Of a stretch of DNA of 64,000 nt, positions 123 through 48,371 are shown piece by piece. Where the stretch lies: positions 1 through 64,000 of the IMG/VR virus record IMGVR_UViG_3300009514_000888. One strand, written 5' to 3'. Position 1 is the stretch's first letter, and each line of letters opens with the position of its first letter. A model generated the notes under the pieces. It was not told the origin of the DNA. It made no database searches and saw nothing but the letters and a program-made list of their open reading frames with translations. This DNA comes from a virus. Position numbers and translations under genes: made by a program.

Positions 123-314
123 ATGAAAGTGATTGATTTTATCGAGGAGTATTTTAACTCCGGAGAATCTTTGACTTTTGTCACTGGTAATAGCGAGCGT
201 ATGCAGCGCATCATCATCGCGGTAATTGATGAATATCGACTAGAGCATACGGTGGGCGATCCTTTTGATAGCAGCAACAAGGGATATATCAAGGTGCAAA
301 CATCGACTGCCTGA
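123..314 (+). CDS. small Smr-like domain protein, possibly 5'-truncated by the upstream element
   Basis: H-SAVRMKVIDFIEEY...LTFVTGNSERMQRII resembles small phage Smr-like proteins, but the usual N-terminal DLHG is absent. Confidence 0.4.
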   Translation: MKVIDFIEEYFNSGESLTFVTGNSERMQRIIIAVIDEYRLEHTVGDPFDSSNKGYIKVQTSTA

Positions 315-2134: not shown

Positions 2135-2911
2135 ATGGGCGTAGACCCAGAAGAGTCCTTCATCGCGACAGCCGTCCTTGATAGAATGCCCCATTCGCTT
2201 CGCAATGTGGACCAGGCGATGTCAAAAACTTTATCCAGGAAGAAATCCTCGCGATTATGGCGTAACATTATGGATTATTGCACCAAAGGCACGCCTATGA
2301 TTAAGGGGAAGGATGCGTGGGTGCTGATCCTACTGTTGAAGAAGACGTTATCGGTTCCTGGCGATGTAGTTGAGATCGGATGTCATAAGGGCAGGACCAC
2401 AGTTGCTTTTCAGTCGTTGTTGAACTATTTTGGAGTTTCTAAGCAGATATATGCCTATGATTCGTTTCAAGGATTGCCCCCAGAACGCCCGGATGAATCG
2501 TATGATCTTTCGTATTATGAAAAAACGGTAACGGACAAGAGTTGGACGAAAGGCTCTACGCAGGGATTGTGTCATGCGACCATAGGCGACTTTGAAAAGA
2601 ATATGCTTCGAGCGGGTGTTGAAATGCCCATCGTTCGAGAGGGGTGGTTGGAGGATACGCTCGATAGTAGCATGCCGGATAGGATTAGCTTTGCTTTTTT
2701 CGATGTTGATATGTACTCGTCCACCAAGACAGCTCTGAATCGGCTGGTTCCCAGGATGAGCATAGGGGCGATAGGGTGCATACATGATTACTCATGGCAT
2801 CCTTGGCGAGAAGGGGTTCGGAGGGCGTGCCAGGAGGAGTTAAGATATTTAGTTAGACCTATTGGAGCATATGGTGTGTTCCAAATAACGCAAGGAGCCA
2901 ATCATGGCTAA
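2135..2911 (+). CDS. TylF/MycF-family (macrocin-O-) methyltransferase
   Basis: VPGDVVEIGCHKG, YAYDSFQGLP, FAFFDVDMYSST and IHDY motifs. Confidence 0.85.
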   Translation: MGVDPEESFIATAVLDRMPHSLRNVDQAMSKTLSRKKSSRLWRNIMDYCTKGTPMIKGKDAWVLILLLKKTLSVPGDVVEIGCHKGRTTVAFQSLLNYFGVSKQIYAYDSFQGLPPERPDESYDLSYYEKTVTDKSWTKGSTQGLCHATIGDFEKNMLRAGVEMPIVREGWLEDTLDSSMPDRISFAFFDVDMYSSTKTALNRLVPRMSIGAIGCIHDYSWHPWREGVRRACQEELRYLVRPIGAYGVFQITQGANHG

Positions 2912-3684
2912 GAAACGAAAACGAGATCGCAAGATTCATCACTTGGATAGGCGTCCCGTCGAGGGTAAAGCGCAGGAGTGTCTTTGACCCATCCATATCT
3001 CATGAACTGATTCTAGAGATTCAGTTCGGTACTGGTGGCGAAGACAGCAAGCTCTTTGTCGAAGACTTGGCCGCCGCCTACCTAAAATATGCCAATCGTT
3101 TAGGGTTGTCCGCTGAGCTGCTCGACAGCTTCGACGGTCATATTGCGCTCAAGATGAGCGGGAGAGGCGTCTGGAGGGCTTTCTGCCACGAGTCAGGCAA
3201 GCATGTCGTCCAGCGTGTGCCGCCCACAGAACGCAGCGGAAGGCGGCAAACGTCTGTTGTGGCGGTATCCATTTTGCCGATCTTTGAACAGAAGGCATCC
3301 CCTTTGCCTGATGCAGATATAGAGATTATGCCGTTTAGCAGCGGCGGGCCGGGCGGACAGCATCGCAACCGCAAGAAGAAAGCGATACGGATGCGGCATA
3401 AGCCTACGGGCATTCAGTCCATTGTAGCAACCAAGGATCGTCAATACAATCTTAAAGAGGCGCGCAAGATTCTGACTGCACGGGTGAATATGAGAAAGTT
3501 AGAATCTCATCGTAAGGATTACGATGAGTCCCGTAAGCAGCAATGGGGAGGCGGGGGACGAACAGGCAAGATCAGGACGTATAACTTTATCGAGTCGAGA
3601 GTTACTGATCACCGCACAGGGCGAAAAACCAGGGCCATTGATTTGGTCATGAGAGGACAGATTGATCTGATCCTGCCTGCCTAA
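2904..3684 (+). CDS. class I peptide chain release factor (RF1-like, lacking domain 1), expressed via +1 frameshift at 2982-2988; about 259 aa
   Basis: ATG 2904 after AAGGAG gives 27 codons to TGA 2985. The +1 frame from 2986 is open to 3684 and encodes LILEIQFGTGGEDS, HVVQRVPPTERSGRRQTS (PxT), GGPGGQH (GGQ) and IRTYNF..SRVTDHR. Confidence 0.85.
2974..2988 (+). promoter_or_regulatory. RF2/prfB-type programmed +1 frameshift signal
   Basis: AGGAG-TGT-CTT-TGA-C: internal SD, 3-nt spacer, CUU-UGA-C, the same geometry as the prfB site. Confidence 0.85.
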
Positions 3685-6031: not shown

Positions 6032-6775
6032 ATGGCGTTTAAGCATCTTATCCTTGCGCTCGGACGGTCTGGCAGTACCACGTTGATGGAAGCGGTAAAC
6101 TGTCATCCGGATGCCTATCTTCTATCAGAGCCATTTAATAAACAGTGGGGCAAATTTTCGCATGTCAAATCTGTTTCAGGTATTGATGCCGCGATCCATA
6201 GTATGCAAGTATTCACTGGGTTTAAGCATACGATGGGAAATACCGCGTCATTTGATAGCGATGGCGTGATTTATCATCACATCTTGAATCATCATCCTCG
6301 CGTTATTTTACTGACGAGAGACAATATGTTGCGCCGGGCCGTATCCATGTCGATGTCTGCGCAAACTCAGGTATGGCATGTCAATCGGCAGCCCGATGCC
6401 AGAGAGAGGATATCTCAGTTTGAATTTCAACCTTTATGGGCGAATTATATCGAAAAGATTCTGCGAACGTCTGTTCTGTGGGTAGAGGCATGCGAAGCAT
6501 ATTTGAGGGAACATGGTATTATTTATCGCAAAATGACGTATGAAAATTTGATGGGCGAAGATGTTCTGGTGGGGTTGCGCATTAAGCGTTTTATGCGTGT
6601 TCTAAAGACCCTGGGATTGAGCAGGGATCATCCGAAATTCAATCCATCGAAGCTGGAAGTTATCTTGTCTCCAAAAAATAAGTTGAATTCCAGGGAAGTA
6701 TATAGGAGAGTTCCTAATATAGACGAAATAGAAGAGGTGTTTGGTAGCCCCGAAAATGGCTACTTGTTCCGATAA
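6032..6775 (+). CDS. sulfotransferase-family protein (Stf0/NodH-like)
   Basis: N-terminal PAPS-binding GRSGSTTL, LLSEPF and ILLTRDN..RAVS motifs. Confidence 0.75.
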   Translation: MAFKHLILALGRSGSTTLMEAVNCHPDAYLLSEPFNKQWGKFSHVKSVSGIDAAIHSMQVFTGFKHTMGNTASFDSDGVIYHHILNHHPRVILLTRDNMLRRAVSMSMSAQTQVWHVNRQPDARERISQFEFQPLWANYIEKILRTSVLWVEACEAYLREHGIIYRKMTYENLMGEDVLVGLRIKRFMRVLKTLGLSRDHPKFNPSKLEVILSPKNKLNSREVYRRVPNIDEIEEVFGSPENGYLFR

Positions 6776-6790
6776 TTTGGAAGGACTGCC

Positions 6791-7063
6791 ATGACTCCCG
6801 AAATGCAGCTGAATTGGGTGGGCGAGGTTTACAAGCAATACATGGCAGATGATACTGCAACTTACCACGAAATAGAAGTCAGGCTAAAGGGAGGCCAAGA
6901 CGCGGATCAAGAAGAATACCACGGGCAATCGTATGAGTTATGGGAGGCTGGTCCATTCTGGTGGGCAAGAACGCCAGATGAATTCGAGGAGCTTGCCTGG
7001 ACCCGAGAAGAGGCGGTCCGGCTGATTGAGAAACACATCGACCAAGCATGTCTCGTCAACTAG
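6791..7063 (+). CDS. hypothetical protein
   Basis: ORF with AAGGA RBS. Confidence 0.55.
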   Translation: MTPEMQLNWVGEVYKQYMADDTATYHEIEVRLKGGQDADQEEYHGQSYELWEAGPFWWARTPDEFEELAWTREEAVRLIEKHIDQACLVN

Positions 7064-8016
7064 TCAAGATAGGAGCGGCTCGAATACCCCAGGGGCCAAG
7101 AACTGAAGAAGACGCCAAGGAAAATGTGCGCTTTGTCATAAGAACACTTTTTGCTGATCAGAAATACGAATTCCAATTATCTGATGATCCTGATTATGTC
7201 ATCTATTTTGCGTCATTAGATGCCTGCCCGCCTGGGAAACATCCTTATGATCCGCAAAATGACCATATCAAAATCTTTGTCTCTTGGGAGCCTCCTACTC
7301 CAGATGATCTAAATCAATACGACTGGCTTTTTACCTGGGTGTATGACGATTTATTGGGCAACCCGCGACATTTGCGGGTTCCATATCACTATTACTTTGG
7401 ATCGCAGTATAGATTGTCGCAACCCAGGGATTGGGATCGGGTTTTTTCGCAAAAGACCAAGTTCTGTAACTTCATCTATTCTCGAGATGTGGAAGTCCGC
7501 AATGAATTTATGCGGAGATTGAACCGATACAAGAGGGTTGACTCGCCTGGCAGGTGTTGCCGCAACATGGTCATGCCGCTGGCCCACGCCGGCAAATCTT
7601 ACAAGCCGATAGACTTCTTGCGATCTTATAAGTTCACGATCTCATTTGAGAACTCGTCAATCGTGGGCTATACGACAGAGAAGATATGCGAATCCATGTA
7701 TGCAGACTCGATACCGATTTATTGGGGGAACCCTTGGATCGGCAGGGACTTTAACGCCGACAGTTTTGTCCATGTCTACGACAAGTCTGCTTTGCAGCAC
7801 CCGAGATTTGGCATGGATTATCAGGAGCCGGATTATTCGATTTCTCCGTCAGAGACTCTGTCTGAATCAATGGACGTTGTCATAGAGAGGATAATTCAAC
7901 TGGATAATGACGATGCACTGTATGCGGGTATGCTGCGACAGCCCTGGCGGGCGGAATACGGCATCCCAGATATGCAAGATCGGCTATCGAAGCGATGCCG
8001 AGAGATATTTGGATAG
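7048..8016 (+). CDS. glycosyltransferase family 10 (alpha-1,3-fucosyltransferase-like)
   Basis: KTKFCNFIYS, YKFTISFENS, GYTTEKI and PIYWG motifs. Confidence 0.85.
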   Translation: MSRQLVKIGAARIPQGPRTEEDAKENVRFVIRTLFADQKYEFQLSDDPDYVIYFASLDACPPGKHPYDPQNDHIKIFVSWEPPTPDDLNQYDWLFTWVYDDLLGNPRHLRVPYHYYFGSQYRLSQPRDWDRVFSQKTKFCNFIYSRDVEVRNEFMRRLNRYKRVDSPGRCCRNMVMPLAHAGKSYKPIDFLRSYKFTISFENSSIVGYTTEKICESMYADSIPIYWGNPWIGRDFNADSFVHVYDKSALQHPRFGMDYQEPDYSISPSETLSESMDVVIERIIQLDNDDALYAGMLRQPWRAEYGIPDMQDRLSKRCREIFG

Positions 8017-12637: not shown

Positions 12638-12700
12638 TCAGCAGTGGGCATGTCCATTGCTGATCATGGATCATTTATCACTAAAACAAAGGAATACACT

Positions 12701-13375
12701 ATGGCCAGTCTTTTTAAGGCAATCAAAAACTGGATACGAGGTAAGCGCGACGACGCGGCTAGCGCCATTGGCGATCCAGTCCGGGATGGCAAGTTTGCAA
12801 TCGAGGACTCGAAGAAGCAGATCGCGGAGTATCGGTCGCAGATCGCGAAAGCGATGGCTGCAACCAAGCAGATCGAGCGTGAGCGAGAATCTGCCCAGAA
12901 CGATGTCAAAAAGTATGGCAACATTGCCAAGCAAGCGGCGTCGATGGGATCGGAGAAGGATGTCCGCGAAGCCGTGACACAGAAGAATCGCGCCAAGGCG
13001 CGCGTCGATCAGCTGAAGGTGGATATCGACCGGAACAACAAGATCACCGATAACCTTCGGATGCATCTGCTGCGAGCAGAAGCCAAGATTGCAGATGCAG
13101 AAAACAACCATACCATTCTCGCTGCTCGGTCAGAGGGCGCAAAGGCTCGCAAGGCGCTTGCTCAGGCGCATACGGAGTTTACCACTGGCGACAATCCGCT
13201 GTCGGCTCTCGATGAGCTGGAGAATGCCGTGAACGCTGATGAGGCGGAAGCGGAAGCTATAGAGGAATTGGTTGGTTTGGACGAGGACGGGATGACGCTG
13301 GAAGAGCGCTACGGCAGCAGCGGCGATTCGAATGTCGATGCTGAAGTCGAAAAGCTCATGGCATCTGCCAAGTAA
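12701..13375 (+). CDS. pspA: PspA/IM30 family protein
   Basis: IGDPVRDGKFAIED, long coiled coil, C-terminal VDAEVEKL. Confidence 0.85.
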   Translation: MASLFKAIKNWIRGKRDDAASAIGDPVRDGKFAIEDSKKQIAEYRSQIAKAMAATKQIERERESAQNDVKKYGNIAKQAASMGSEKDVREAVTQKNRAKARVDQLKVDIDRNNKITDNLRMHLLRAEAKIADAENNHTILAARSEGAKARKALAQAHTEFTTGDNPLSALDELENAVNADEAEAEAIEELVGLDEDGMTLEERYGSSGDSNVDAEVEKLMASAK

Positions 13376-19182: not shown

Positions 19183-21210
19183 TTGGCTATGATTTCTGAA
19201 CAAAAACTGATGTTTTGGATCGAAAAGGGTTACAATGTTTTGTTTAGTGGTGCCCACGGGGTCGGGAAGTCGTCGGTAGTCATTGAGGTTTTTAAGAAAG
19301 CTCGTCTGAAATGGGCGTATTTTTCTGGCGCGACAATGGACCCGTTTATTGATTTCGTCGGAGTCCCTGTCAAGGTGGATGATGAAGACGGTAGCCATAT
19401 CAAGCTCATCCTGCCAGAGCATATTCGACCGAATGAGATTGAGGCGATTTTTATTGACGAGTACAACAGGTGTTTGTCAGGGGATACAAAGATTTCCCTA
19501 TTAGATGGGCGATCTGTTCCTATTAAAGAGCTAGAATCAGAACCAGAATTCTTTGTATATTCCTTTGACTCAAAGAGCGGAAAAATCGTAGCGGGCAGAG
19601 GGCATAGTTGCCGAAAAACCGGGGTTAGACAAAAAATGGTGGAAGTTGAATTAGATAATGGAGAATCAGTAAAATGCACTCCAGATCATCCCTTTTTACT
19701 ATCCAATGGAGACTATGTTCTTGCTTTTAACCTGAGGGCAGGTGACATTCTAATGTCATTATATCGTCGTCTGTCTGAATGTGTAAAGAAAAACAAGTAT
19801 GTCATGGAGGGTTATGAAGAAGTATATCAGCCATTGGATGATGTATGGGAGTATACTCATGTATTATCCGATGATTACAATCTAAGAGTTGGAAAATACC
19901 GGAATTTCAAAGGCAGGATGAATCATACGGTCATATCTGTTAAAGAGTCTGAAAACGAAGATGTTTATGATATTACTGTTGATGATTATCATAATTTCGC
20001 TATCGAATCTGGGGTTTTTGTTCACAACTCCCACAAGAAGGTTCGCAACGCCACAATGGAATTGATTCAGTTTCGATCCATCAATGGGCGTCCGTTCCCT
20101 AATCTGAAGCTCATTTGGGCGGCAATCAATCCCGATAACGAAGCCGATGATCTGCCCAGTTACGATGTCGAGACGATGGACCCGGCGCAACGCGACCGCT
20201 TTCATGTCCATGTCACGATCCCTTACAAACCCATCCCCTCTTACTTCACCAGTAAGTATGGAGATGAGATTGGCAAGGCTGGCCTGCAATGGTGGGATGA
20301 GCTGCCTGATAAGGCAAAAGAAGAAGTTTCGCCGAGACGACTAGATTATGCTTTACAGATGTTTCAGGATGGTGGAGATATCCATGATGTTTTGCCGCGC
20401 ATCTCAAATCCGGCTCTACTGAAATTGCTGCTGCATACGGGACCAGCCGAAGAAAAACTTGATAATTTCATGAAGAATAAAGATGAAACTGGCGCAAAGT
20501 CGTGGTTGGCAGCGGACAATAATTTTGAATATGTCAAGACGACCATCTTCAAATTTGCCAAGTATCGTCGTTGGTTTGTCCCGCTCATGCTGACGGAACG
20601 TGTTTCGCAGTATATGGCATCTGATGCTCGTCTGAAATGGGAGATACTGGACGACATGATAAAGAAGGGCGTTTCCTCTGCTTACATCGATATGCTGAGG
20701 GAAATTGTACAATCGGATGTCGATGCCAAGCTTTGCGAGGATATTAGGAAGAAAATGGAAGCCGCTGGCCTGGACGTTCCAGCGATAAAGGCGATTCCTG
20801 TGTATCAGACTGGCAGCCCGCCAGCAGATTTCTCCGATAGACTGGGAAAATTGGCCACCTACTCAACGTCCAGTGCCAGGACCAAGACCTATCAACGGCG
20901 GGCGATGTATCAGCGGTTGCTCAAACTGGTGCCGCCGAGCATGACCGCGGCGCAGGCGTGGCAGGTCTTGGATATTTGTAACGGAATTATTGGGCCGTCT
21001 TACCATCATACCATTGATAAGTTTTTCCCCAAGGTAATTGCCATATCCAATGCGGCTATTATTCAACTGATCGAGCATCGAGAGCCGTTGAAAAATATAG
21101 AAGATAGACTGTCGGTCTTGAAGCGGATTAGGCTTTTACGTAAACGCAAGTGTGCGCCAGGGCTGACGGACATAGTTCGGTATTGTAAGTCTCGCAAACA
21201 AGCGCCGTAA
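19183..21210 (+). CDS. MoxR-like AAA+ ATPase with intein
   Basis: Walker A GAHGVGKS, Walker B IFIDEYNR, WAAINP, MDPAQRDRF. Confidence 0.85.
   Translation: MAMISEQKLMFWIEKGYNVLFSGAHGVGKSSVVIEVFKKARLKWAYFSGATMDPFIDFVGVPVKVDDEDGSHIKLILPEHIRPNEIEAIFIDEYNRCLSGDTKISLLDGRSVPIKELESEPEFFVYSFDSKSGKIVAGRGHSCRKTGVRQKMVEVELDNGESVKCTPDHPFLLSNGDYVLAFNLRAGDILMSLYRRLSECVKKNKYVMEGYEEVYQPLDDVWEYTHVLSDDYNLRVGKYRNFKGRMNHTVISVKESENEDVYDITVDDYHNFAIESGVFVHNSHKKVRNATMELIQFRSINGRPFPNLKLIWAAINPDNEADDLPSYDVETMDPAQRDRFHVHVTIPYKPIPSYFTSKYGDEIGKAGLQWWDELPDKAKEEVSPRRLDYALQMFQDGGDIHDVLPRISNPALLKLLLHTGPAEEKLDNFMKNKDETGAKSWLAADNNFEYVKTTIFKFAKYRRWFVPLMLTERVSQYMASDARLKWEILDDMIKKGVSSAYIDMLREIVQSDVDAKLCEDIRKKMEAAGLDVPAIKAIPVYQTGSPPADFSDRLGKLATYSTSSARTKTYQRRAMYQRLLKLVPPSMTAAQAWQVLDICNGIIGPSYHHTIDKFFPKVIAISNAAIIQLIEHREPLKNIEDRLSVLKRIRLLRKRKCAPGLTDIVRYCKSRKQAP
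19471..20028 (+). mobile_element. intein (186 aa) in the AAA+ ATPase
   Basis: DEYNR|CLSGDTKI...CTPDHPF...VYDITV..YHNF..GVFVHN|S. Confidence 0.92.
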
Positions 21211-23210: not shown

Positions 23211-23313
23211 GACCTATTTACAACTTGGCTTCGAATACTCGGCCTGCTATCCGCCTGGGGCGGGGTCCGTCTGCAAAACGGATGCAATAAGGGTTCGAAT
23301 CCCTGGTGGGTCT
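23211..23313 (+). tRNA. tRNA-Cys(GCA)-like with ambiguous or expanded 5'/D region
   Basis: Anticodon arm TCCGT-CTGCAAA-ACGGA; T arm AGGG-TTCGAAT-CCCT; 3' GTGGGTC pairs with GACCTAT (23211), or more weakly with the strand near 23242; U73. Confidence 0.6.
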
Positions 23314-23362: not shown

Positions 23363-23438
23363 GCCCGGCTGCCCGAGTCTGGACAAAGGGAGCGGACTGC
23401 AACTCCGCTAATCGTGGGTTCAAATCCCACGCCGGGCT
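23363..23438 (+). tRNA. tRNA-Cys(GCA)
   Basis: GCCCGGC/GCCGGGC acceptor, GCGGA-CTGCAAC-TCCGC anticodon arm, GTGGG-TTCAAAT-CCCAC T arm, U73. Confidence 0.92.
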
Positions 23439-36115: not shown

Positions 36116-36268
36116 ACCGCCGGAAGCGAATAGATAGGACTCGCGCGTTAATACCGTGACATAGCTCAATGGTAGAGCAACACCCCTAAAGGTGCGATTG
36201 AAGGTTCAAACCCTTCTGTCTCAACAGAACTTAACCCGCAACCTACCTATCTATTTCCTTCCGGCGGT
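36116..36268 (+). ncRNA. Y-RNA-like unit 4 (complete tRNA-like insert, 6-nt CCUAAA loop)
   Basis: ACCGCCGGAAG/CTTCCGGCGGT and ATAGATAGG/CCTATCTAT stems; conserved core; insert has GCTC/GAGC D arm, CACC/GGTG arm and GAAGG-TTCAAAC-CCTTC T arm. Confidence 0.7.
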
Positions 36269-36442: not shown

Positions 36443-36515
36443 GGCCGCGTAGCTCAGCGGAAGAGCAAAGCGTCTCTAAAACGCTAGGTCCAGGGTTCGA
36501 GTCCCTGCGCGGCTT
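36443..36515 (+). tRNA. amber suppressor tRNA (anticodon CTA)
   Basis: GGCCGCG/CGCGGCT acceptor, GCTC/GAGC D stem, AGCGT-CTCTAAA-ACGCT anticodon arm (CTA at 36476-36478), CAGGG-TTCGAGT-CCCTG T arm. Confidence 0.85.
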
Positions 36516-39846: not shown

Positions 39847-40551
39847 ATGAGCTTGTCATCTTTATTTTCGCGCGAGCATTACGAATCCTGGACACTAAGA
39901 GTTGCATCTAGCCTTGACGAAGTTTACAGTGCTTGGAGGTTGGTATACCGCGAATATCGCTCATTTGGGTTTCTGCATGAGAACAAATATAAGATTGTTG
40001 TTCCTCGGCATTTCAATCATGATTCGTTGGTCATACTGACCAGTATCTACCACGTAGCCATCTCAACATTAACTTGTTCTCTGGATAGCGAACATGGCTT
40101 GACTTTGGACACAGTCTTCCGGGATCAGATAGATCAACTACGAGATGACGGGAGGCATGTCGCAGAAATAGGGATGTTTGCTAGTGTTCGGGGGCATGAG
40201 GCTTATCGGTCCTTGGCCAGAGACTTGCTGGAAATGATGCGCTACTCGTACTATTACTTACGATACCAAAAAATAGATGATATTGTGGTTGGAGTTCACC
40301 CAGACCATGTATCATTTTATAAGGATGTATTTGGTCTGGACATATTTAGCGATGAGAGATCGTATGCCAGATATAGCAACAATCCTGTGGTTTTGATGAG
40401 AGCTGGGCTTCAAAACTGGTCTAAAAAAGATCATCCTGTAGTTAGATACTACGGCGACAATCGCATTCCTGAGTTACAATTCAAACATCGATATGACTTC
40501 AATCCAGTAGAGGTTCGCGATTCCGCCATAGGAAAATTCCTGGACTCTTAG
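39847..40551 (+). CDS. GNAT-fold N-acyl amino acid synthase (FeeM-like)
   Basis: AWRLVYREY...G, VAEIG.FA, VGVHP.H..FY and NNPVVL motifs. Confidence 0.7.
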   Translation: MSLSSLFSREHYESWTLRVASSLDEVYSAWRLVYREYRSFGFLHENKYKIVVPRHFNHDSLVILTSIYHVAISTLTCSLDSEHGLTLDTVFRDQIDQLRDDGRHVAEIGMFASVRGHEAYRSLARDLLEMMRYSYYYLRYQKIDDIVVGVHPDHVSFYKDVFGLDIFSDERSYARYSNNPVVLMRAGLQNWSKKDHPVVRYYGDNRIPELQFKHRYDFNPVEVRDSAIGKFLDS

Positions 40552-41928: not shown

Positions 41929-42014
41929 TTTTTTAGACGATCAAGTGATAAAGAGGAGTATATCTCATTTTCGGGGAAAGAGTAGGGCCGCAAACTTTGT
42001 ATAAGGAGGAACTA

Positions 42015-42842
42015 ATGGGTTGTAGACAGTTGGACGAGGAGGCGTTGAATTGCCTCTGGAAGAGCTACCGGAAGAAGAAGGACAAAAAGAAAAAACAAAC
42101 ACTTGTAGAGCATTACTTTCCTTTTGTTCAGAAAATCGCTTACCGATTGGCAAAGAAGATCAATTGGCAAGTAGAGCCAGATGCCTTATCCAGCTTCGGA
42201 GTTGATGGGTTGTATCGGGCCATTGATGGTTATCGCCCTTCCCGTGGCGTTCGTTTCGAATCCTACGCCAATAGACGTATCCGAGGCGCAATGATAGACG
42301 GACTCCGTCGAGAGGATATGGTGCCTCGTAGCGTTCGTATCTTAGGCGAGAGGTTTGAAAGACATAAGCAGAAAATACAGAACCATCTTGGACGAAAAGT
42401 ATCCGATGTGGAAGCGTCAGACTTGTTGGGTATGGACGAATCCTACTTTCAAAGGAACTACCGCAAGTTTCTTCCTTCGGCATTTTCCAGTTTGGAAACA
42501 GGACTTGAAACTGACCAGGAAGAGTTCAAAGAGGACTGCAATATCGTCCTCAAAGACGAGAGTGATCCTCCAGGCAATCCTGCGGTTCGTAAAGAGTTCT
42601 TCAATAAACTGATGGGAGATGGATTCTCGCCTATTGAACGACGCATCGTTTGGCTCTATTACTACGAAGGGCTGACAATGGATCGCGTGTCTAAGCGAAT
42701 CAAATTATCCGAGTCTCGCGTGAGCCAGATGCACAAAGCCATGCTCCCGCGTTTGGCCGATAAGATTAAGAGAAACCCTGAATATTTTGGGGACATACAC
42801 TCTTTTATCGGCTATAGTGGCAAGGCTGGCGCGATTCGGTGA
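42015..42842 (+). CDS. FliA/WhiG-family RNA polymerase sigma factor
   Basis: LVEHYFPFV, GLYRAIDGY, FESYANRRIRGAMIDGLR and LSESRVSQMH motifs. Confidence 0.9.
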   Translation: MGCRQLDEEALNCLWKSYRKKKDKKKKQTLVEHYFPFVQKIAYRLAKKINWQVEPDALSSFGVDGLYRAIDGYRPSRGVRFESYANRRIRGAMIDGLRREDMVPRSVRILGERFERHKQKIQNHLGRKVSDVEASDLLGMDESYFQRNYRKFLPSAFSSLETGLETDQEEFKEDCNIVLKDESDPPGNPAVRKEFFNKLMGDGFSPIERRIVWLYYYEGLTMDRVSKRIKLSESRVSQMHKAMLPRLADKIKRNPEYFGDIHSFIGYSGKAGAIR

Positions 42843-44906: not shown

Positions 44907-47900
44907 GTGCCTGACATATCAGTAAAGAAACGAAATGGTCGTCTCGAAAAACTCAATTTAGACAAAATCAATCGTTGTGTTCAGCGCGCTTGCGATGACG
45001 TAGAGGCGGTTTCGGCGAGCGAGGTTATACTGGATGCCCAGGTGCAGCTTTATAACAAGATTACCACAACCGAAATTGATAAAGCGCTTATTTTATCCGC
45101 CAGAAGTAAAATCGAGAAAGACCCCAACTATTCCACGGTTGCCGCTCGACTACTCCTCAATACCATATACAAAGAAGTCTTTGGAGAAGGCGTCGATAGC
45201 GATGTCTTCGACATGCAATATCACAAGTCGTTCGTGACAAATCTCAAGAATTTGGTTAAAGTTGGGCGTATTGATGCAGAGCTGTTGAAATTCGACCTGA
45301 ATCGCCTTGCGAAGGCGCTGGATACGCGCAGGGATCATTTGTGGAACTATTTGGGTATCCAGACGGTCTACGACAGATACCTGTTACACATCAACGGACG
45401 GCGTATGGAGACTCCGCAGGGATTTTGGATGCGAGTTGCGATGGGACTGGCGATTAACGAAGAAGATCGGGAAACCAAGGCTATCGAATTCTATGATGCT
45501 CTATCTCGCAATTTATGCCTTTCTGGCACGCCGACATTGTTTAATAGCGGCACCGTTCATCCTCAGCTGAGTAGTTGTTATCTTTCAAGCGTTGACGACT
45601 CGATTAACGGTATTTTCGGAACGATACATAACCAAGCATGTTTGTCCAAATTTGCTGGCGGACTGGGAGTAGACTGGACTCCTATCCGCGGGACCGGCTC
45701 TTATATTCGAGGAACCAATGGCAAAAGCCAGGGCTTAGTGCCGTGGCTTAAAATCTTTAACGATACGTTGGTCGCAGTCAATCAATGCTTTGATCCTGAG
45801 ACACATGTATTTACGGGCAAGGGTATAAAGCAAATGAAAGATGTTGAGAAAGGCGATTTTATACTTTCCGGAAATGGCGAACAATGCGAAGTTGAACAGG
45901 TGATGTTTTATGAGCAGAATGATAGCATGGTCGAAATCGATGTTGAGCATTCTGTTGACAAGATGAGGGTCACTTCTGGTCATCCGCTTTTGGCTTTACG
46001 CAATGTTCCAGTAGAAGTTGAGAACGATAGGACTTATAGGAGGTTGGATAAGGGAATGATCGCGACGGAATGGGTCGAGGCAGGCGACTTGAAACAGGGC
46101 GATTATGTCGCATTCCCCATACCGCAAGAGACATTGAAGGTGGATGGATTTGCGGATGAAGATGCTTATCTGTATGGATTGATGCTAGGAGACGACCATG
46201 CCTCCATAGATCAAGACGAACGTGGAGTATCCTTTCGCCAAGATACCGCAAATGGCAGTTTGCCGTTTGATTATGATGATTTATATGACAAAGATCATAA
46301 CAAAAGAATATCTGCGAAATTCATGCACCTTCCTAGACCTCAGTCTTTGCAGATGATCAAGGGATTGCTGGATTCGGATGAAAATCTGTCTATAGGAGAC
46401 GAGATAATCTTTGGCAATGCTTCTAGATTACTAGTGGAAGGCATGAGGTATCAGCTTCTTCGTATGGGGATACCGTCTGCTGGTAATAAAAGAGAAAGAA
46501 ATTATGATCCTGAATTTCCTTGCAGCGATGGCCCAGCGGTCGCCGCGAAAGGAACGACGGTTGTTTATGATTTAAGAATTCCAGCTGTTCAGGAGATTGC
46601 AGATTTGGTAGGGTCTAAAGTGTTGACTAAGCCAAACTGGTTACGTGTTCATAACTTGATATTAAGTAGAGTGAAGTCTGTAAATCCAATGGACAAATTG
46701 CCAGTGGTAGTTGATCTGAAGATAAAACGAGATGAGACGTACGTGACCAGCTCTGGATTAGCTCATAATGGCGGTAGGCGGAAGGGGGCAGGATGCGCTT
46801 ATTTAGAGACATGGCATTGCGATCTTGAGGACTTTTTGGAGTTACGTAAAAATACCGGCGATGATCGTCGGCGTTGTCATGATATGCATATGGCCAACTG
46901 GATTCCTGATGAATTTATGCGCCGCGTTCAGGGAGATGAGCAGTGGTATCTTTTCAGCCCAAGCGACACTCCCGATCTACATGATCTATTTGGGAAAGAG
47001 TTCGATAAGGCATACAAGCTATACTGCAAGCAGGCGGATGCTGGGGAAATCCCCAGTAGGATAGTTCCCGCCAAACATCTTTGGAAGAAGATGCTACGGT
47101 CTTTATATGAAACTGGACACCCGTGGATGACCTGGAAAGACCCGTCTAACATTCGCTATCCCAATCAGCATGTGGGGACGGTTCATTCGTCTAACTTGTG
47201 TACCGAAATCCTCTTGCACACTAAGGCGACTAAGTATGGAGACACAGGCGAGGTTGAGGAAATCGGAGAGACAGCTGTGTGTAACTTAAGTAGTCTCAAC
47301 TTGGCAGCTCATATCGAAAATGGTAATATGAACTGGGATTTGCTTCAAAAAACCATTGGCACAGCAATGCGAATGCTCGATAATGTCATTGATATTAACT
47401 ACTATCCGACCAAAGAATCTCGCAAGTCCAATACGACTCATCGCCCTGTCGGACTGGGAATTATGGGCTTTCATGACATGCTTCATCTGTTGGGTATCAC
47501 TTATGATTCAAATGAGGCCGTTGAACTTTCTGGGCAGGTGCAAGAGTTTGTTTCGTACCACGCCATTTTGAACTCTAGCAAGTTGGCCAAGGAGCGCGGG
47601 ACGTACCGCACTTACGAAGGCTCGACCTGGGATCAGGGGTTGCTGCCTATCGACACTTATCGAGAGTTGATCAAATATCGTGGCAATGAAGATGCTACAA
47701 TAGTTCAACGGCTGGATTGGAGTGAAGTTAAAGATCACGTAGCGCAGCATGGTATGCGTAACTCGAATACGATGGCAATTGCTCCAACCGCTACAATTAG
47801 TTATATCGCCGGATGCTCGCAAAGTATCGAGCCAGACTTTGGCGTTCTTTACGTTTATACGACGCTATCCGGCGAATTTACAATGGCGAACCGCTTCTTC

Positions 47901-48371
47901 GCAGACGATATGAAAAGGCTAGGATTGTGGGGCAAGGACTTGATCGATGCTCTTAAGGTTGTGGATGGAGATATCGATCAACTGAACCTCCCTGAGGATA
48001 TTAAGCACAAGTATAAGTCAGCTTTTCATATGCCACCTGAGCGGCTCATCGACTGCGCTGCCGCCAGGCAACAGTGGATTGATCAGGGGCAGAGTCTTAA
48101 CCTATATGCTGATACGACCAGCATGAAGTACCTGCATGATATGTATATGTATGCCTGGCAAAAATGCCTGAAAACAACCTATTATTTGCGGGCGAAGGCA
48201 GCCAGCCGCATTGAGAAATCTACTGGCTCTAAAAATGGCAATGGGTATCTCAAGGTAAATGGCAATGGCAATGGCAATGGCCAAGAGCCGCAGGAGAACG
48301 TATTGACTGATGGCGATGTTTGTTCGACGGAATCTCGCATGCGCGGCGAGATTTGTGAAGCATGTCAATAA
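44907..48371 (+). CDS. nrdA: ribonucleotide reductase alpha subunit with ATP cone and intein
   Basis: VKKRNG ATP cone, TPTLFN, SSCYL, NLCTEI, CNLSS, APTAT, KTTYY and a C-terminal Cys pair. Confidence 0.95.
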   Translation: MPDISVKKRNGRLEKLNLDKINRCVQRACDDVEAVSASEVILDAQVQLYNKITTTEIDKALILSARSKIEKDPNYSTVAARLLLNTIYKEVFGEGVDSDVFDMQYHKSFVTNLKNLVKVGRIDAELLKFDLNRLAKALDTRRDHLWNYLGIQTVYDRYLLHINGRRMETPQGFWMRVAMGLAINEEDRETKAIEFYDALSRNLCLSGTPTLFNSGTVHPQLSSCYLSSVDDSINGIFGTIHNQACLSKFAGGLGVDWTPIRGTGSYIRGTNGKSQGLVPWLKIFNDTLVAVNQCFDPETHVFTGKGIKQMKDVEKGDFILSGNGEQCEVEQVMFYEQNDSMVEIDVEHSVDKMRVTSGHPLLALRNVPVEVENDRTYRRLDKGMIATEWVEAGDLKQGDYVAFPIPQETLKVDGFADEDAYLYGLMLGDDHASIDQDERGVSFRQDTANGSLPFDYDDLYDKDHNKRISAKFMHLPRPQSLQMIKGLLDSDENLSIGDEIIFGNASRLLVEGMRYQLLRMGIPSAGNKRERNYDPEFPCSDGPAVAAKGTTVVYDLRIPAVQEIADLVGSKVLTKPNWLRVHNLILSRVKSVNPMDKLPVVVDLKIKRDETYVTSSGLAHNGGRRKGAGCAYLETWHCDLEDFLELRKNTGDDRRRCHDMHMANWIPDEFMRRVQGDEQWYLFSPSDTPDLHDLFGKEFDKAYKLYCKQADAGEIPSRIVPAKHLWKKMLRSLYETGHPWMTWKDPSNIRYPNQHVGTVHSSNLCTEILLHTKATKYGDTGEVEEIGETAVCNLSSLNLAAHIENGNMNWDLLQKTIGTAMRMLDNVIDINYYPTKESRKSNTTHRPVGLGIMGFHDMLHLLGITYDSNEAVELSGQVQEFVSYHAILNSSKLAKERGTYRTYEGSTWDQGLLPIDTYRELIKYRGNEDATIVQRLDWSEVKDHVAQHGMRNSNTMAIAPTATISYIAGCSQSIEPDFGVLYVYTTLSGEFTMANRFFADDMKRLGLWGKDLIDALKVVDGDIDQLNLPEDIKHKYKSAFHMPPERLIDCAAARQQWIDQGQSLNLYADTTSMKYLHDMYMYAWQKCLKTTYYLRAKAASRIEKSTGSKNGNGYLKVNGNGNGNGQEPQENVLTDGDVCSTESRMRGEICEACQ
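45786..46769 (+). mobile_element. intein (328 aa, degenerate LAGLIDADG) in NrdA, Gly at +1
   Basis: AVNQ|CFDPETHV...VTSGHP...YLYGLMLGD...KGLLDSD...GLAHN|GGRRKG. Confidence 0.9.

What the first reader, a model, noticed from the sequence alone, without database searches (positions are those of the whole stretch)
2904..3684. RF1-type release factor gated by an RF2-type UGA +1 frameshift
Seen: AGGAG-TGT-CTT-TGA-C at codons 26-28 joins a 27-aa leader to the +1-frame body. That body carries GGQ and the tripeptide PPT (PxT) and lacks domain 1. Known: this signal is the prfB autoregulatory device sensing RF2, while PxT specifies RF1 (UAA/UAG). Inference: either the phage makes an RF1-like factor only when host RF2 activity falls (cross-regulation, e.g. 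after defence-mediated damage to translation), or the factor has broadened specificity including UGA and autoregulates.
Basis: partly seen in the sequence, partly recalled or inferred. Interest (0 to 1): 0.9.

Follow-up and report, generated by a model that had tools for sequence, protein, structure and literature searches.

The report
Frameshift-gated short phage release factor
A huge phage carries a shortened RF1-type translation-termination factor that can be made in full only if the ribosome slips one base forward at an internal CUU-UGA-C signal, a device published only for bacterial RF2. Almost all of about 100 related phage genes are gated by an early stop codon in the same way.

Summary
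ATG 2904, with a Shine-Dalgarno (SD) site, opens a 27-codon leader that ends in AGGAG-TGT-CTT-TGA-C. The +1 frame from 2986 to 3684 has no usable start. It encodes a complete RF1-like domain 2-4 protein with PPT and GGQ and no domain 1.

It is not an error. I collected 97 distinct domain-1-less relatives from phage, metagenome and MAG contigs.
- 84 keep CTT-T-stop in the required frame, mostly 12 codons before the G.GG motif.
- One uses GTT-T-GA.
- 8 have an in-frame TGA between leader and body.
- Only 4 start directly.

The stop at the site is TGA in 48, TAG in 35 and TAA in 1. It changed at least 15 times on the family tree. 24 genes carry two sites in tandem, including mixed TAG+TGA pairs. 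The decoding motif stays PPT throughout.

So the programmed frameshift is real. The label "RF2-type" is too narrow, because the family is gated by whichever stop is slow to terminate. Whether this factor reads UGA itself (autoregulation) or is cross-regulated by host RF2 cannot be decided in silico.

I found no published description in five paper searches. Notes from this scan record the same family at least 8 times before, on other DNA.

The parts
2892..2897 (+). Shine-Dalgarno AAGGAG of the leader ORF, 6 nt before the ATG
   Evidence: Sequence. Homologues also have an SD-like site plus ATG before short leaders.
2904..2984 (+). Leader, 27 sense codons in the 0 frame (ATG to CTT). It is very basic. 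Its ATG overlaps the stop of the upstream TylF-like methyltransferase gene (2135-2911).
   Evidence: Leaders in homologues run 4-43 codons, mostly about 20.
2974..2978 (+). Internal SD-like AGGAG, 3 nt upstream of the CTT codon. This is the same spacing as in prfB.
   Evidence: SD-core matches of 5 nt or more occur at 29% of family sites against 11% of control positions. GG(A/G)GG is nearly invariant at the first site of tandem genes.
2979..2981 (+). TGT, the E-site codon at the moment of the shift
   Evidence: TGT holds this position in 45 of 84 family sites.
2982..2988 (+). Shift heptamer CTT TGA C. CUU is in the P site, the 0-frame UGA is in the A site, and C is at +4.
   Evidence: CTT-T-stop is present in 84 of 97 distinct homologues, and C is the +4 base in 52 of 84. 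TGA-C ends only 3 of 68 TGA-terminated genes in this phage fragment.
2986..3684 (+). Body in the +1 frame: 232 codons plus TAA. It encodes RF1-like domains 2, 3 and 4.
   Evidence: The AlphaFold2 model has pLDDT 86 and matches ribosome-bound RF1 with TM 0.89 and rmsd 2.1 A.
3028..3045 (+). G-T-G-G-E-D, the tip of the decoding helix. It aligns to Thermus RF1 residues 114-119, with Asp in place of Glu119.
   Evidence: Alignment. This Asp is invariant in the family alignment.
3220..3228 (+). PPT tripeptide, of the PxT (RF1) type
   Evidence: PPT is present in 70 of 84 frameshift-gated relatives whatever the gating stop.
3352..3360 (+). GGQ catalytic motif
   Evidence: invariant in the family.
3067..3069 (+). 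TTG, the first canonical start in the body frame. The public gene call starts here (205 aa). I reject it as the true start.
   Evidence: P0003, 205 aa. Starting here would delete the invariant decoding-helix motif that is conserved across the family.

Best explanation
This is a genuine programmed +1 ribosomal frameshift. It is required to make a compact, domain-1-less class-I release factor of RF1 type, encoded by a huge phage.

Proposed mechanism:
1. Ribosomes start at ATG 2904 and translate 27 codons.
2. They stop with CUU in the P site and UGA-C in the A site.
3. AGGAG, 3 nt upstream, pairs with the 16S rRNA tail.
4. Either a release factor that reads UGA ends translation and releases the 27-residue leader peptide, or tRNA-Leu re-pairs from CUU to UUU and the ribosome continues in the +1 frame to make the 259-aa factor.

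Output of the factor therefore rises when termination at UGA is slow. By its decoding motifs the factor should read UAA and UAG but not UGA. In this phage the gate would then be set by host RF2 rather than by the factor itself.

What is shown in silico: the frame architecture, the prfB-like signal, its conservation, and the intact RF1-like fold and motifs. What is inferred: the competition between slippage and termination, which factor sets it, and the codon specificity.
For: Frame layout and signal:
- Searches give the frame layout and the signal.
- There is no start in the body frame for 70 codons upstream of TTG 3067.
- The junction falls exactly where the alignment to Thermus RF1 begins, at residue 100, the domain 1/2 border.

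Protein:
- RF1 scores above RF2 in the profiles.
- Thermus RF1 positions G116, Q181, P184, T186 and T194 are kept.
- The model matches ribosome-bound RF1 with TM 0.89.

Conservation:
- 84 of 97 distinct relatives, at 40-55% identity, keep NNN-CTT-T-stop-N in the right frame and at the same distance from G.GG.
- Each has a short leader with an SD site and ATG.
- 24 have the cassette in tandem.
- Two have it relocated about 29 codons into domain 2.
- 8 of the 13 relatives without the CTT site have an in-frame TGA between leader and body.
- Altogether 93 of 97 are gated by an early stop.

Other points:
- The family is one clade against full-length RF1 (SH-like support 100).
- The phage fragment uses the standard code with all three stops, and it avoids TGA-C at gene ends.
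- For bacterial prfB, the same elements are the published basis of RF2 autoregulation (PMC12421855).
Against:
- The host, and so its RF2 level and anti-SD sequence, is unknown.
- An RF1-type factor gated by UGA has no obvious homeostatic logic, because it could not relieve slow termination at UGA.
- The gating stop flips among TGA, TAG and TAA at least 15 times with no change in the decoding motif. This fits a factor that reads all three stops, or a generic sensor, about as well as it fits RF2 cross-regulation.
- The upstream SD-like element is only moderately enriched at single sites.
- The factor departs from canonical RF1 at two decoding positions, E119D and H193Q, so its specificity cannot be read off with confidence.
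Confidence: 0.72

Rival explanations
1. The factor has broadened specificity: it reads UGA as well as UAA and UAG. The frameshift would then be true autoregulation, as in prfB, and any of the three stops would serve as the sensor.
For: - The gating stop is TGA in 48 relatives, TAG in 35 and TAA in 1, and it changes at least 15 times on the tree.
- L008 (TAG) and L011 (TAA) are almost identical proteins.
- Tandem sites mix TAG+TGA, TAA+TGA and TAA+TAG.
- No decoding-element column covaries with the stop type.
- The family differs from RF1 at E119D and H193Q.
- Negative feedback is the simplest reason for such strong conservation.
Against: - The PxT-type tripeptide, with Pro first and Thr third, predicts UAA and UAG only. 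This rests on my knowledge of the Ito and Nakamura tripeptide rule and was not tested here.
- Q181 and T194 are of RF1 type.
- Family members occur with in-frame TGA at a conserved Trp position in their own genes. A UGA-reading product would limit its own synthesis there, which is again feedback and so not decisive.
- The covariation test had almost no power, with only 4 independent pairs.
Confidence: 0.2
2. The frameshift is a fixed attenuator with no sensing role. It sets a low, constant ratio of factor to leader translation, for example to avoid toxicity from excess release factor.
For: - Overexpressed RF2 is toxic in B. subtilis, and RF1 is toxic to a lesser degree (PMC12421855).
- Weak stop contexts (TGA-C, TAG-C) dominate at the site.
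Against: - A weak SD site or a weak promoter would give the same result far more simply.
- 93 of 97 relatives keep a stop-codon gate. They do so through four different layouts: single site, tandem sites, relocated site and in-frame TGA.
- TAA is nearly absent from single sites.
- These points argue that dwell time at the stop codon is the quantity being read.
Confidence: 0.06
3. There is no recoding. Either the TGA is a sequencing error or a recent inactivating mutation, or the protein starts independently at TTG 3067 or reinitiates after the TGA.
For: The public gene call starts at 3067 (P0003, 205 aa).
Against: - The same interruption lies at the same place in 84 diverged homologues from independent assemblies.
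- The stretch 2986-3066 encodes the invariant decoding-helix motif and aligns to RF1 from its first codon.
- There is no SD site before 3067.
- Reinitiation would not require a conserved CTT-T heptamer.
Confidence: 0.02

Closest known systems
Bacterial prfB (RF2) autoregulatory +1 programmed frameshift, SD-N3-CUU-UGA-C
   Same: - CUU slippery codon in the P site.
- In-frame UGA followed by C.
- SD-like element 3 nt upstream.
- Site near codon 26-28 after a short leader.
- The product is a class-I release factor.
   Different: - The gene is RF1-like, not RF2.
- The shift lies at the domain 1/2 border of a protein that has no domain 1.
- Across the family the stop is TAG in 35 of 84 sites. TAG was never seen among 8,164 prfB motifs (PMC12421855).
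- Sites occur in tandem and in mixed pairs.
- TGT is the usual E-site codon.
- The sensed stop is probably not read by the encoded factor.
Bacterial RF1 (prfA)
   Same: - PCRF and RF-1 domains.
- PxT-type tripeptide, GGQ, and Thermus RF1 positions Q181 and T194.
- The model superposes on ribosome-bound RF1 (TM 0.89).
   Different: - About 100 N-terminal residues (domain 1) are missing and replaced by a basic 27-residue leader.
- Substitutions E119D, I192R and H193Q.
- The score is far below the equivalog cut-off (206 against 400 bits).
- The one survey I read found no programmed frameshift in bacterial prfA (PMC12421855).
Phage-encoded release factors of stop-codon-recoded phages (Borges et al., bioRxiv 10.1101/2021.08.26.457843)
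   Same: A phage-borne class-I release factor, found together with phage suppressor tRNAs.
   Different: - Those were reported as RF1 in TGA-recoded phages and RF2 in TAG-recoded phages, as part of a code switch. The passages I read mention no frameshift gate.
- This phage fragment uses the standard code, yet it carries an amber-suppressor tRNA.
PrfH (the release-factor homologue paired with RtcB2)
   Same: It is also a class-I release-factor homologue without domain 1.
   Different: - The match is weak (42 bits against a cut-off of 167).
- By my recollection, not tested here, PrfH has no stop-codon decoding motifs and works with RtcB.
- Here the decoding motifs are intact, and no neighbouring gene is conserved.

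Membership tests
Class-I release factor RF1 (prfA; NCBIfam NF001859 / TIGR00019) | PCRF domain (domains 2 and 4) and RF-1 (GGQ) domain | tested here: met
   Pfam PF03462 8.9e-23 and PF00472 2.3e-19. GGQ at 3352-3360.
Class-I release factor RF1 (prfA; NCBIfam NF001859 / TIGR00019) | PxT tripeptide and RF1-type decoding residues | tested here: met
   PPT is present. G116, Q181, P184, T186 and T194 of Thermus RF1 are kept, but E119 is D and H193 is Q.
Class-I release factor RF1 (prfA; NCBIfam NF001859 / TIGR00019) | N-terminal domain 1 | tested here: not met
   The matches start at profile position 95-107 and at chain residue 100. Only a 27-residue leader precedes them.
Class-I release factor RF1 (prfA; NCBIfam NF001859 / TIGR00019) | Score above the equivalog cut-off | tested here: not met
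   206.5 bits against a cut-off of 400, and 196.3 against 423.
Class-I release factor RF1 (prfA; NCBIfam NF001859 / TIGR00019) | Peptide release at UAA and UAG but not UGA | not testable with these tools
   This needs an in vitro release assay.
prfB-type +1 programmed frameshift | CUU in the P site directly before an in-frame stop, with the functional protein in the +1 frame | tested here: met
   There is no start in the body frame before 3067.
prfB-type +1 programmed frameshift | UGA followed by C, with an SD-like element 3 nt upstream of CUU | tested here: met
   AGGAG-TGT-CTT-TGA-C at 2974-2988.
prfB-type +1 programmed frameshift | The signal is conserved in homologues | tested here: met
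   84 of 97 distinct relatives.
prfB-type +1 programmed frameshift | The encoded factor itself reads the gating stop (autoregulation) | tested here: inconclusive
   The PxT-type motif argues against reading UGA. The interchangeable TGA, TAG and TAA in the family leave the question open.
prfB-type +1 programmed frameshift | The gene encodes RF2 (SPF tripeptide) | tested here: not met
   RF2 scores 130 bits against 206 for RF1, and the tripeptide is PPT.
PrfH (TIGR03072) | Score above the cut-off, and an adjacent RtcB partner | tested here: not met
   42.4 bits against 166.65. The downstream 373-aa ORF has no Pfam match, and neighbours are not conserved among homologous loci.
ArfB / ICT1 rescue factors | A GGQ domain alone with a C-terminal tail, acting without a stop codon | tested here: not met
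   17 bits against a cut-off of 100. A full decoding domain is present.

The most novel reading that the evidence does not exclude
This phage family encodes a minimal bacterial-type release factor that reads all three stop codons and regulates itself through whichever stop sits in its own frameshift or readthrough gate. Single gates, tandem gates (a steeper response) and mixed-codon gates would all be versions of this. It would be a portable termination homeostat that lets huge phages keep termination running independently of host RF1, RF2 and RF3.
Probability: 0.2. Interest if true: 0.95.

Novelty: new variant of a known kind. Interest (0 to 1): 0.85.

Why it matters
- Stop-codon-sensing +1 frameshifting is a textbook device known from one gene, prfB. 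A survey of 8,164 bacterial prfB motifs found TGA or TAA only, never TAG, and found no frameshift in prfA (PMC12421855).
- Here the same device gates an RF1-type factor in a large clade of phage genes. It uses all three stops, sometimes two in series.
- This offers natural variants for dissecting how the A-site stop, the E-site codon and the SD element set frameshift efficiency.
- It corrects a systematic annotation error: these genes are called 5'-truncated, at 199-300 aa.
- It raises a testable question about why huge phages bring a domain-1-less release factor, and what it reads.
- A compact factor of known or broadened specificity would also interest genetic-code engineering.

Tried and rejected
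- Start at TTG 3067, or reinitiation: rejected, because it would delete invariant residues and has no SD site.
- Sequencing error or pseudogene: rejected on conservation.
- Genome-wide recoding in this phage: rejected. ORF coverage is 87% under the standard code and no single stop, read as sense, stands out. All three stops end genes.
- Genome-wide TGA recoding as the reason for in-frame TGAs in the genes of LR756501 and LR756504: not supported in 49-kb stretches of each.
- Second GGAG-N3-CTTTGAC at 162-175: chance, in-frame sense sequence.
- Downstream stimulatory RNA structure: none (z = -1.1).
- Conserved gene neighbourhood or partner protein: none.
- Link between local G+C content and TGA against TAG at the site: not significant (p = 0.10).
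- Covariation between body residues and the gating stop: the raw associations lie in the GGQ domain and vanish in phylogenetically independent pairs. With only 4 such pairs the test has almost no power.
- Literature: five full-text searches found no description of a frameshifted RF1-like or phage release-factor gene. Subscription journals are not covered.

Full report
**Observation.**
- AAGGAG lies at 2892-2897 and ATG at 2904. The ATG overlaps the TAA stop of the upstream TylF-like methyltransferase gene.
- 27 sense codons follow, then AGGAG (2974-2978), TGT, CTT (2982-2984), TGA (2985-2987) and C.
- Reading on in the 0 frame meets another TGA six codons later, so readthrough cannot join leader and body.
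- The +1 frame is open from 2857 to 3684 and has no ATG, GTG or TTG until TTG 3067.
- Joining the frames at CTT-T gives a 259-aa protein.

**What the protein is.**
- Pfam finds the C-terminal half of the PCRF domain (profile positions 95-194 of 194) directly after the junction, followed by the RF-1/GGQ domain.
- NCBIfam scores are RF1 206 bits, RF2 130, PrfH 42 and ArfB 17. All are below the equivalog cut-offs.
- Against solved structures, the alignment to Thermus RF1 starts at chain residue 100 and query residue 28. The frameshift therefore sits exactly at the domain 1/2 border.
- In that alignment G116, Q181, P184, T186 and T194 are kept. E119 is Asp, V185 is Pro (hence PPT), I192 is Arg and H193 is Gln.
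- An AlphaFold2 model of the body has pLDDT 86 and pTM 0.71. It superposes on ribosome-bound RF1 with TM 0.88-0.89 and rmsd 2.1 A. It fits the closed free form poorly, at TM 0.57.
- The body is therefore a complete domain 2-4 release factor of RF1 type. Domain 1 is replaced by a basic 27-residue leader.

**Genome context.**
- The window is the first 64 kb of a 186-kb virus record estimated to be 39% complete.
- It encodes ribonucleotide reductase, a terminase-like protein, a sigma factor, a DNA methylase and seven tRNAs.
- Its best DNA-level relative is a 595-kb uncultured phage.
- The 186-kb fragment uses the standard code. Among 178 gene-like ORFs the stops are TAA 73, TGA 68 and TAG 37. TGA-C ends only 3 of them.
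- This is the only release-factor gene in the record.

**Conservation of the gate.** Scans of viral, metagenome and genome collections gave about 150 loci. They contain 97 distinct domain-1-less bodies and 10 full-length RF1 genes, which I used as outgroup.
- 84 of the 97 carry CTT-T-stop in the frame that needs a +1 shift. The modal position is 12 codons before the G.GG motif.
- The stop is TGA in 48, TAG in 35 and TAA in 1.
- The +4 base is C in 52, G in 21, T in 8 and A in 3.
- The E-site codon is TGT in 45.
- Each site is preceded by a short ORF with ATG and an SD-like site, mostly about 20 codons long.
- 24 genes have two such sites 11-23 codons apart, with no start codon in the middle frame in most of them. 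The pairs are TAG+TAG, TGA+TGA, TAG+TGA, TAA+TGA and TAA+TAG.
- The first site of these tandems has a nearly invariant GG(A/G)GG-TGT-CTT-TAG-C, which is the prfB layout.
- Two loci, L133 and L154, start directly at domain 2 and carry TAT-CTT-TAG-C about 29 codons further in.
- Of the 13 genes without a CTT site, 8 have an in-frame TGA between a short leader and the body. One of these is L026, the window's nearest relative on the tree. One gene has GTT-T-GA-A, and 4 start directly.
- In total, 93 of 97 distinct relatives are gated by an early stop codon.
- Further relatives carry in-frame TGA or TAG at a conserved Trp position inside the body.

**Evolution of the stop.**
- On a FastTree phylogeny the family is one clade against full-length RF1, with SH-like support 100.
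- The gating stop changes at least 15 times. Well-supported branches alone force 5-6 of these changes.
- L008 (TAG) and L011 (TAA) are nearly identical proteins.
- The tripeptide is PPT in 70 of 84 genes, whatever the stop.
- No column of the decoding elements follows the stop type. The raw associations lie in the GGQ domain and do not survive independent-pair analysis, though that test had little power.

**Mechanism.** The window's cassette has every element that defines the prfB frameshift: a CUU slippery codon, a weakly terminating UGA-C, and an SD-like element at a 3-nt spacing. For prfB these elements, and the competition between RF2 and slippage, are established (PMC12421855; PMC10885494).
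- By analogy I infer that the yield of the phage factor is inversely coupled to termination efficiency at UGA.
- There is no downstream RNA structure.
- The PxT-type tripeptide, Q181 and T194 predict reading of UAA and UAG. This rests on my knowledge of the tripeptide rule, so in this phage the gate would be set by host RF2.
- That prediction is weakened by E119D and H193Q, and by the free exchange of TGA, TAG and TAA across the family.
- A factor that reads all three stops and regulates itself is a live alternative, at about 0.2.
- A UAA-only factor, or a role outside ordinary termination, cannot be excluded.

**Comparison with what is known.**
- In 8,164 bacterial prfB motifs the stop was TGA (98.6%) or TAA (1.4%), and never TAG. 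No programmed frameshift was found in prfA (PMC12421855).
- All CUU-stop entries in RECODE are prfB genes (PMC10885494).
- Phage release factors have been reported in recoded phages. The passages I read do not mention a frameshift (10.1101/2021.08.26.457843).
- Five full-text searches found no description of this device.
- Public gene calls for the family are 199-300 aa and named "peptide chain release factor 1". They are truncated or wrongly extended at the 5' end.

**Earlier notes of this scan.** Eight earlier reports describe the same family on other genomes: single, tandem and amber versions, and a UGA-readthrough version. My counts agree with them. I reached the main points before reading them. 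I did not find the myxobacterial chromosomal copies that two of the notes (e1-4035777 and e1-5820025) mention. My genome hits were MAG contigs labelled mostly Pirellulaceae or Planctomycetota, and these may be mis-binned phage contigs.

**Verdict.** The programmed frameshift is real with high confidence. The regulatory logic, cross-regulation by RF2 or autoregulation, is unresolved. This is a new variant of a known recoding device and of high interest to the recoding and phage-translation fields.

Noticed in passing
window 36443-36515 (+) and 36155-36225 (+): There is a well-formed tRNA with anticodon CUA, an amber suppressor (Rfam tRNA, 58.6 bits). About 220 nt upstream lies a second tRNA (46.5 bits) that ARAGORN draws with a 6-nt anticodon loop and an ambiguous anticodon. 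The 186-kb fragment otherwise uses the standard code, with TAG ending 37 of 178 genes. A suppressor of UAG together with an RF1-type factor in one phage is unexplained.
   Followed up: partly
window 23241-23313 and 23363-23438 (+): The phage carries two tRNA-Cys(GCA) genes. UGU (Cys) is the E-site codon at the shift site here and in 45 of 84 relatives. A link is pure speculation.
   Followed up: no
window 162-175 (+): A second exact match to GGAG-N3-CTTTGAC (2 found, 0.05 expected). It lies in frame as sense codons inside an ordinary ORF, so it is a chance match.
   Followed up: yes
L133 about 1040-1090; L154 about 1040-1090: Two relatives start directly at domain 2 and carry TAT-CTT-TAG-C about 29 codons into the gene. 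The same frameshift cassette is therefore at a different position in the same protein family.
   Followed up: partly
L018 (= G001, 33.7-kb IMG/VR contig); L091, L112, L114, L125; L002, L003: These relatives have a direct ATG start and in-frame TGA (TAG in L018) inside the body, mostly at a conserved Trp position. In the L018 contig several ORFs merge when TAG is read as sense, so it may be partly TAG-recoded. 49-kb stretches of LR756501 and LR756504 look standard-coded, so there the internal TGAs look gene-specific.
   Followed up: partly
window 2135-2911, 6032-6775, 7048-8016 (+): The release-factor gene sits among sugar-modification genes: a TylF-like O-methyltransferase, an Stf0-like sulfotransferase and a GT10 fucosyltransferase. 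The neighbours are not conserved at homologous loci.
   Followed up: partly
window 19183-21210 (+) and 44907-48371 (+): An ATPase/helicase-like ORF contains an intein splicing domain. The 1,154-aa ribonucleotide reductase large subunit matches its family in two separated stretches, which suggests an insertion, possibly another intein.
   Followed up: no
window 12644-13375, 39847-40551, 41997-42842 (+): The phage encodes a PspA/IM30 homologue, a FeeM-type N-acyl amino acid synthase and a sigma-70-family factor.
   Followed up: no
L134, L137, L139, L140, L142, L143, L147-L150 (genome contigs): Many family members lie on contigs binned into Pirellulaceae or Planctomycetota MAGs. This may point to hosts, or to phage contigs mis-binned into the MAGs.
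   Followed up: no
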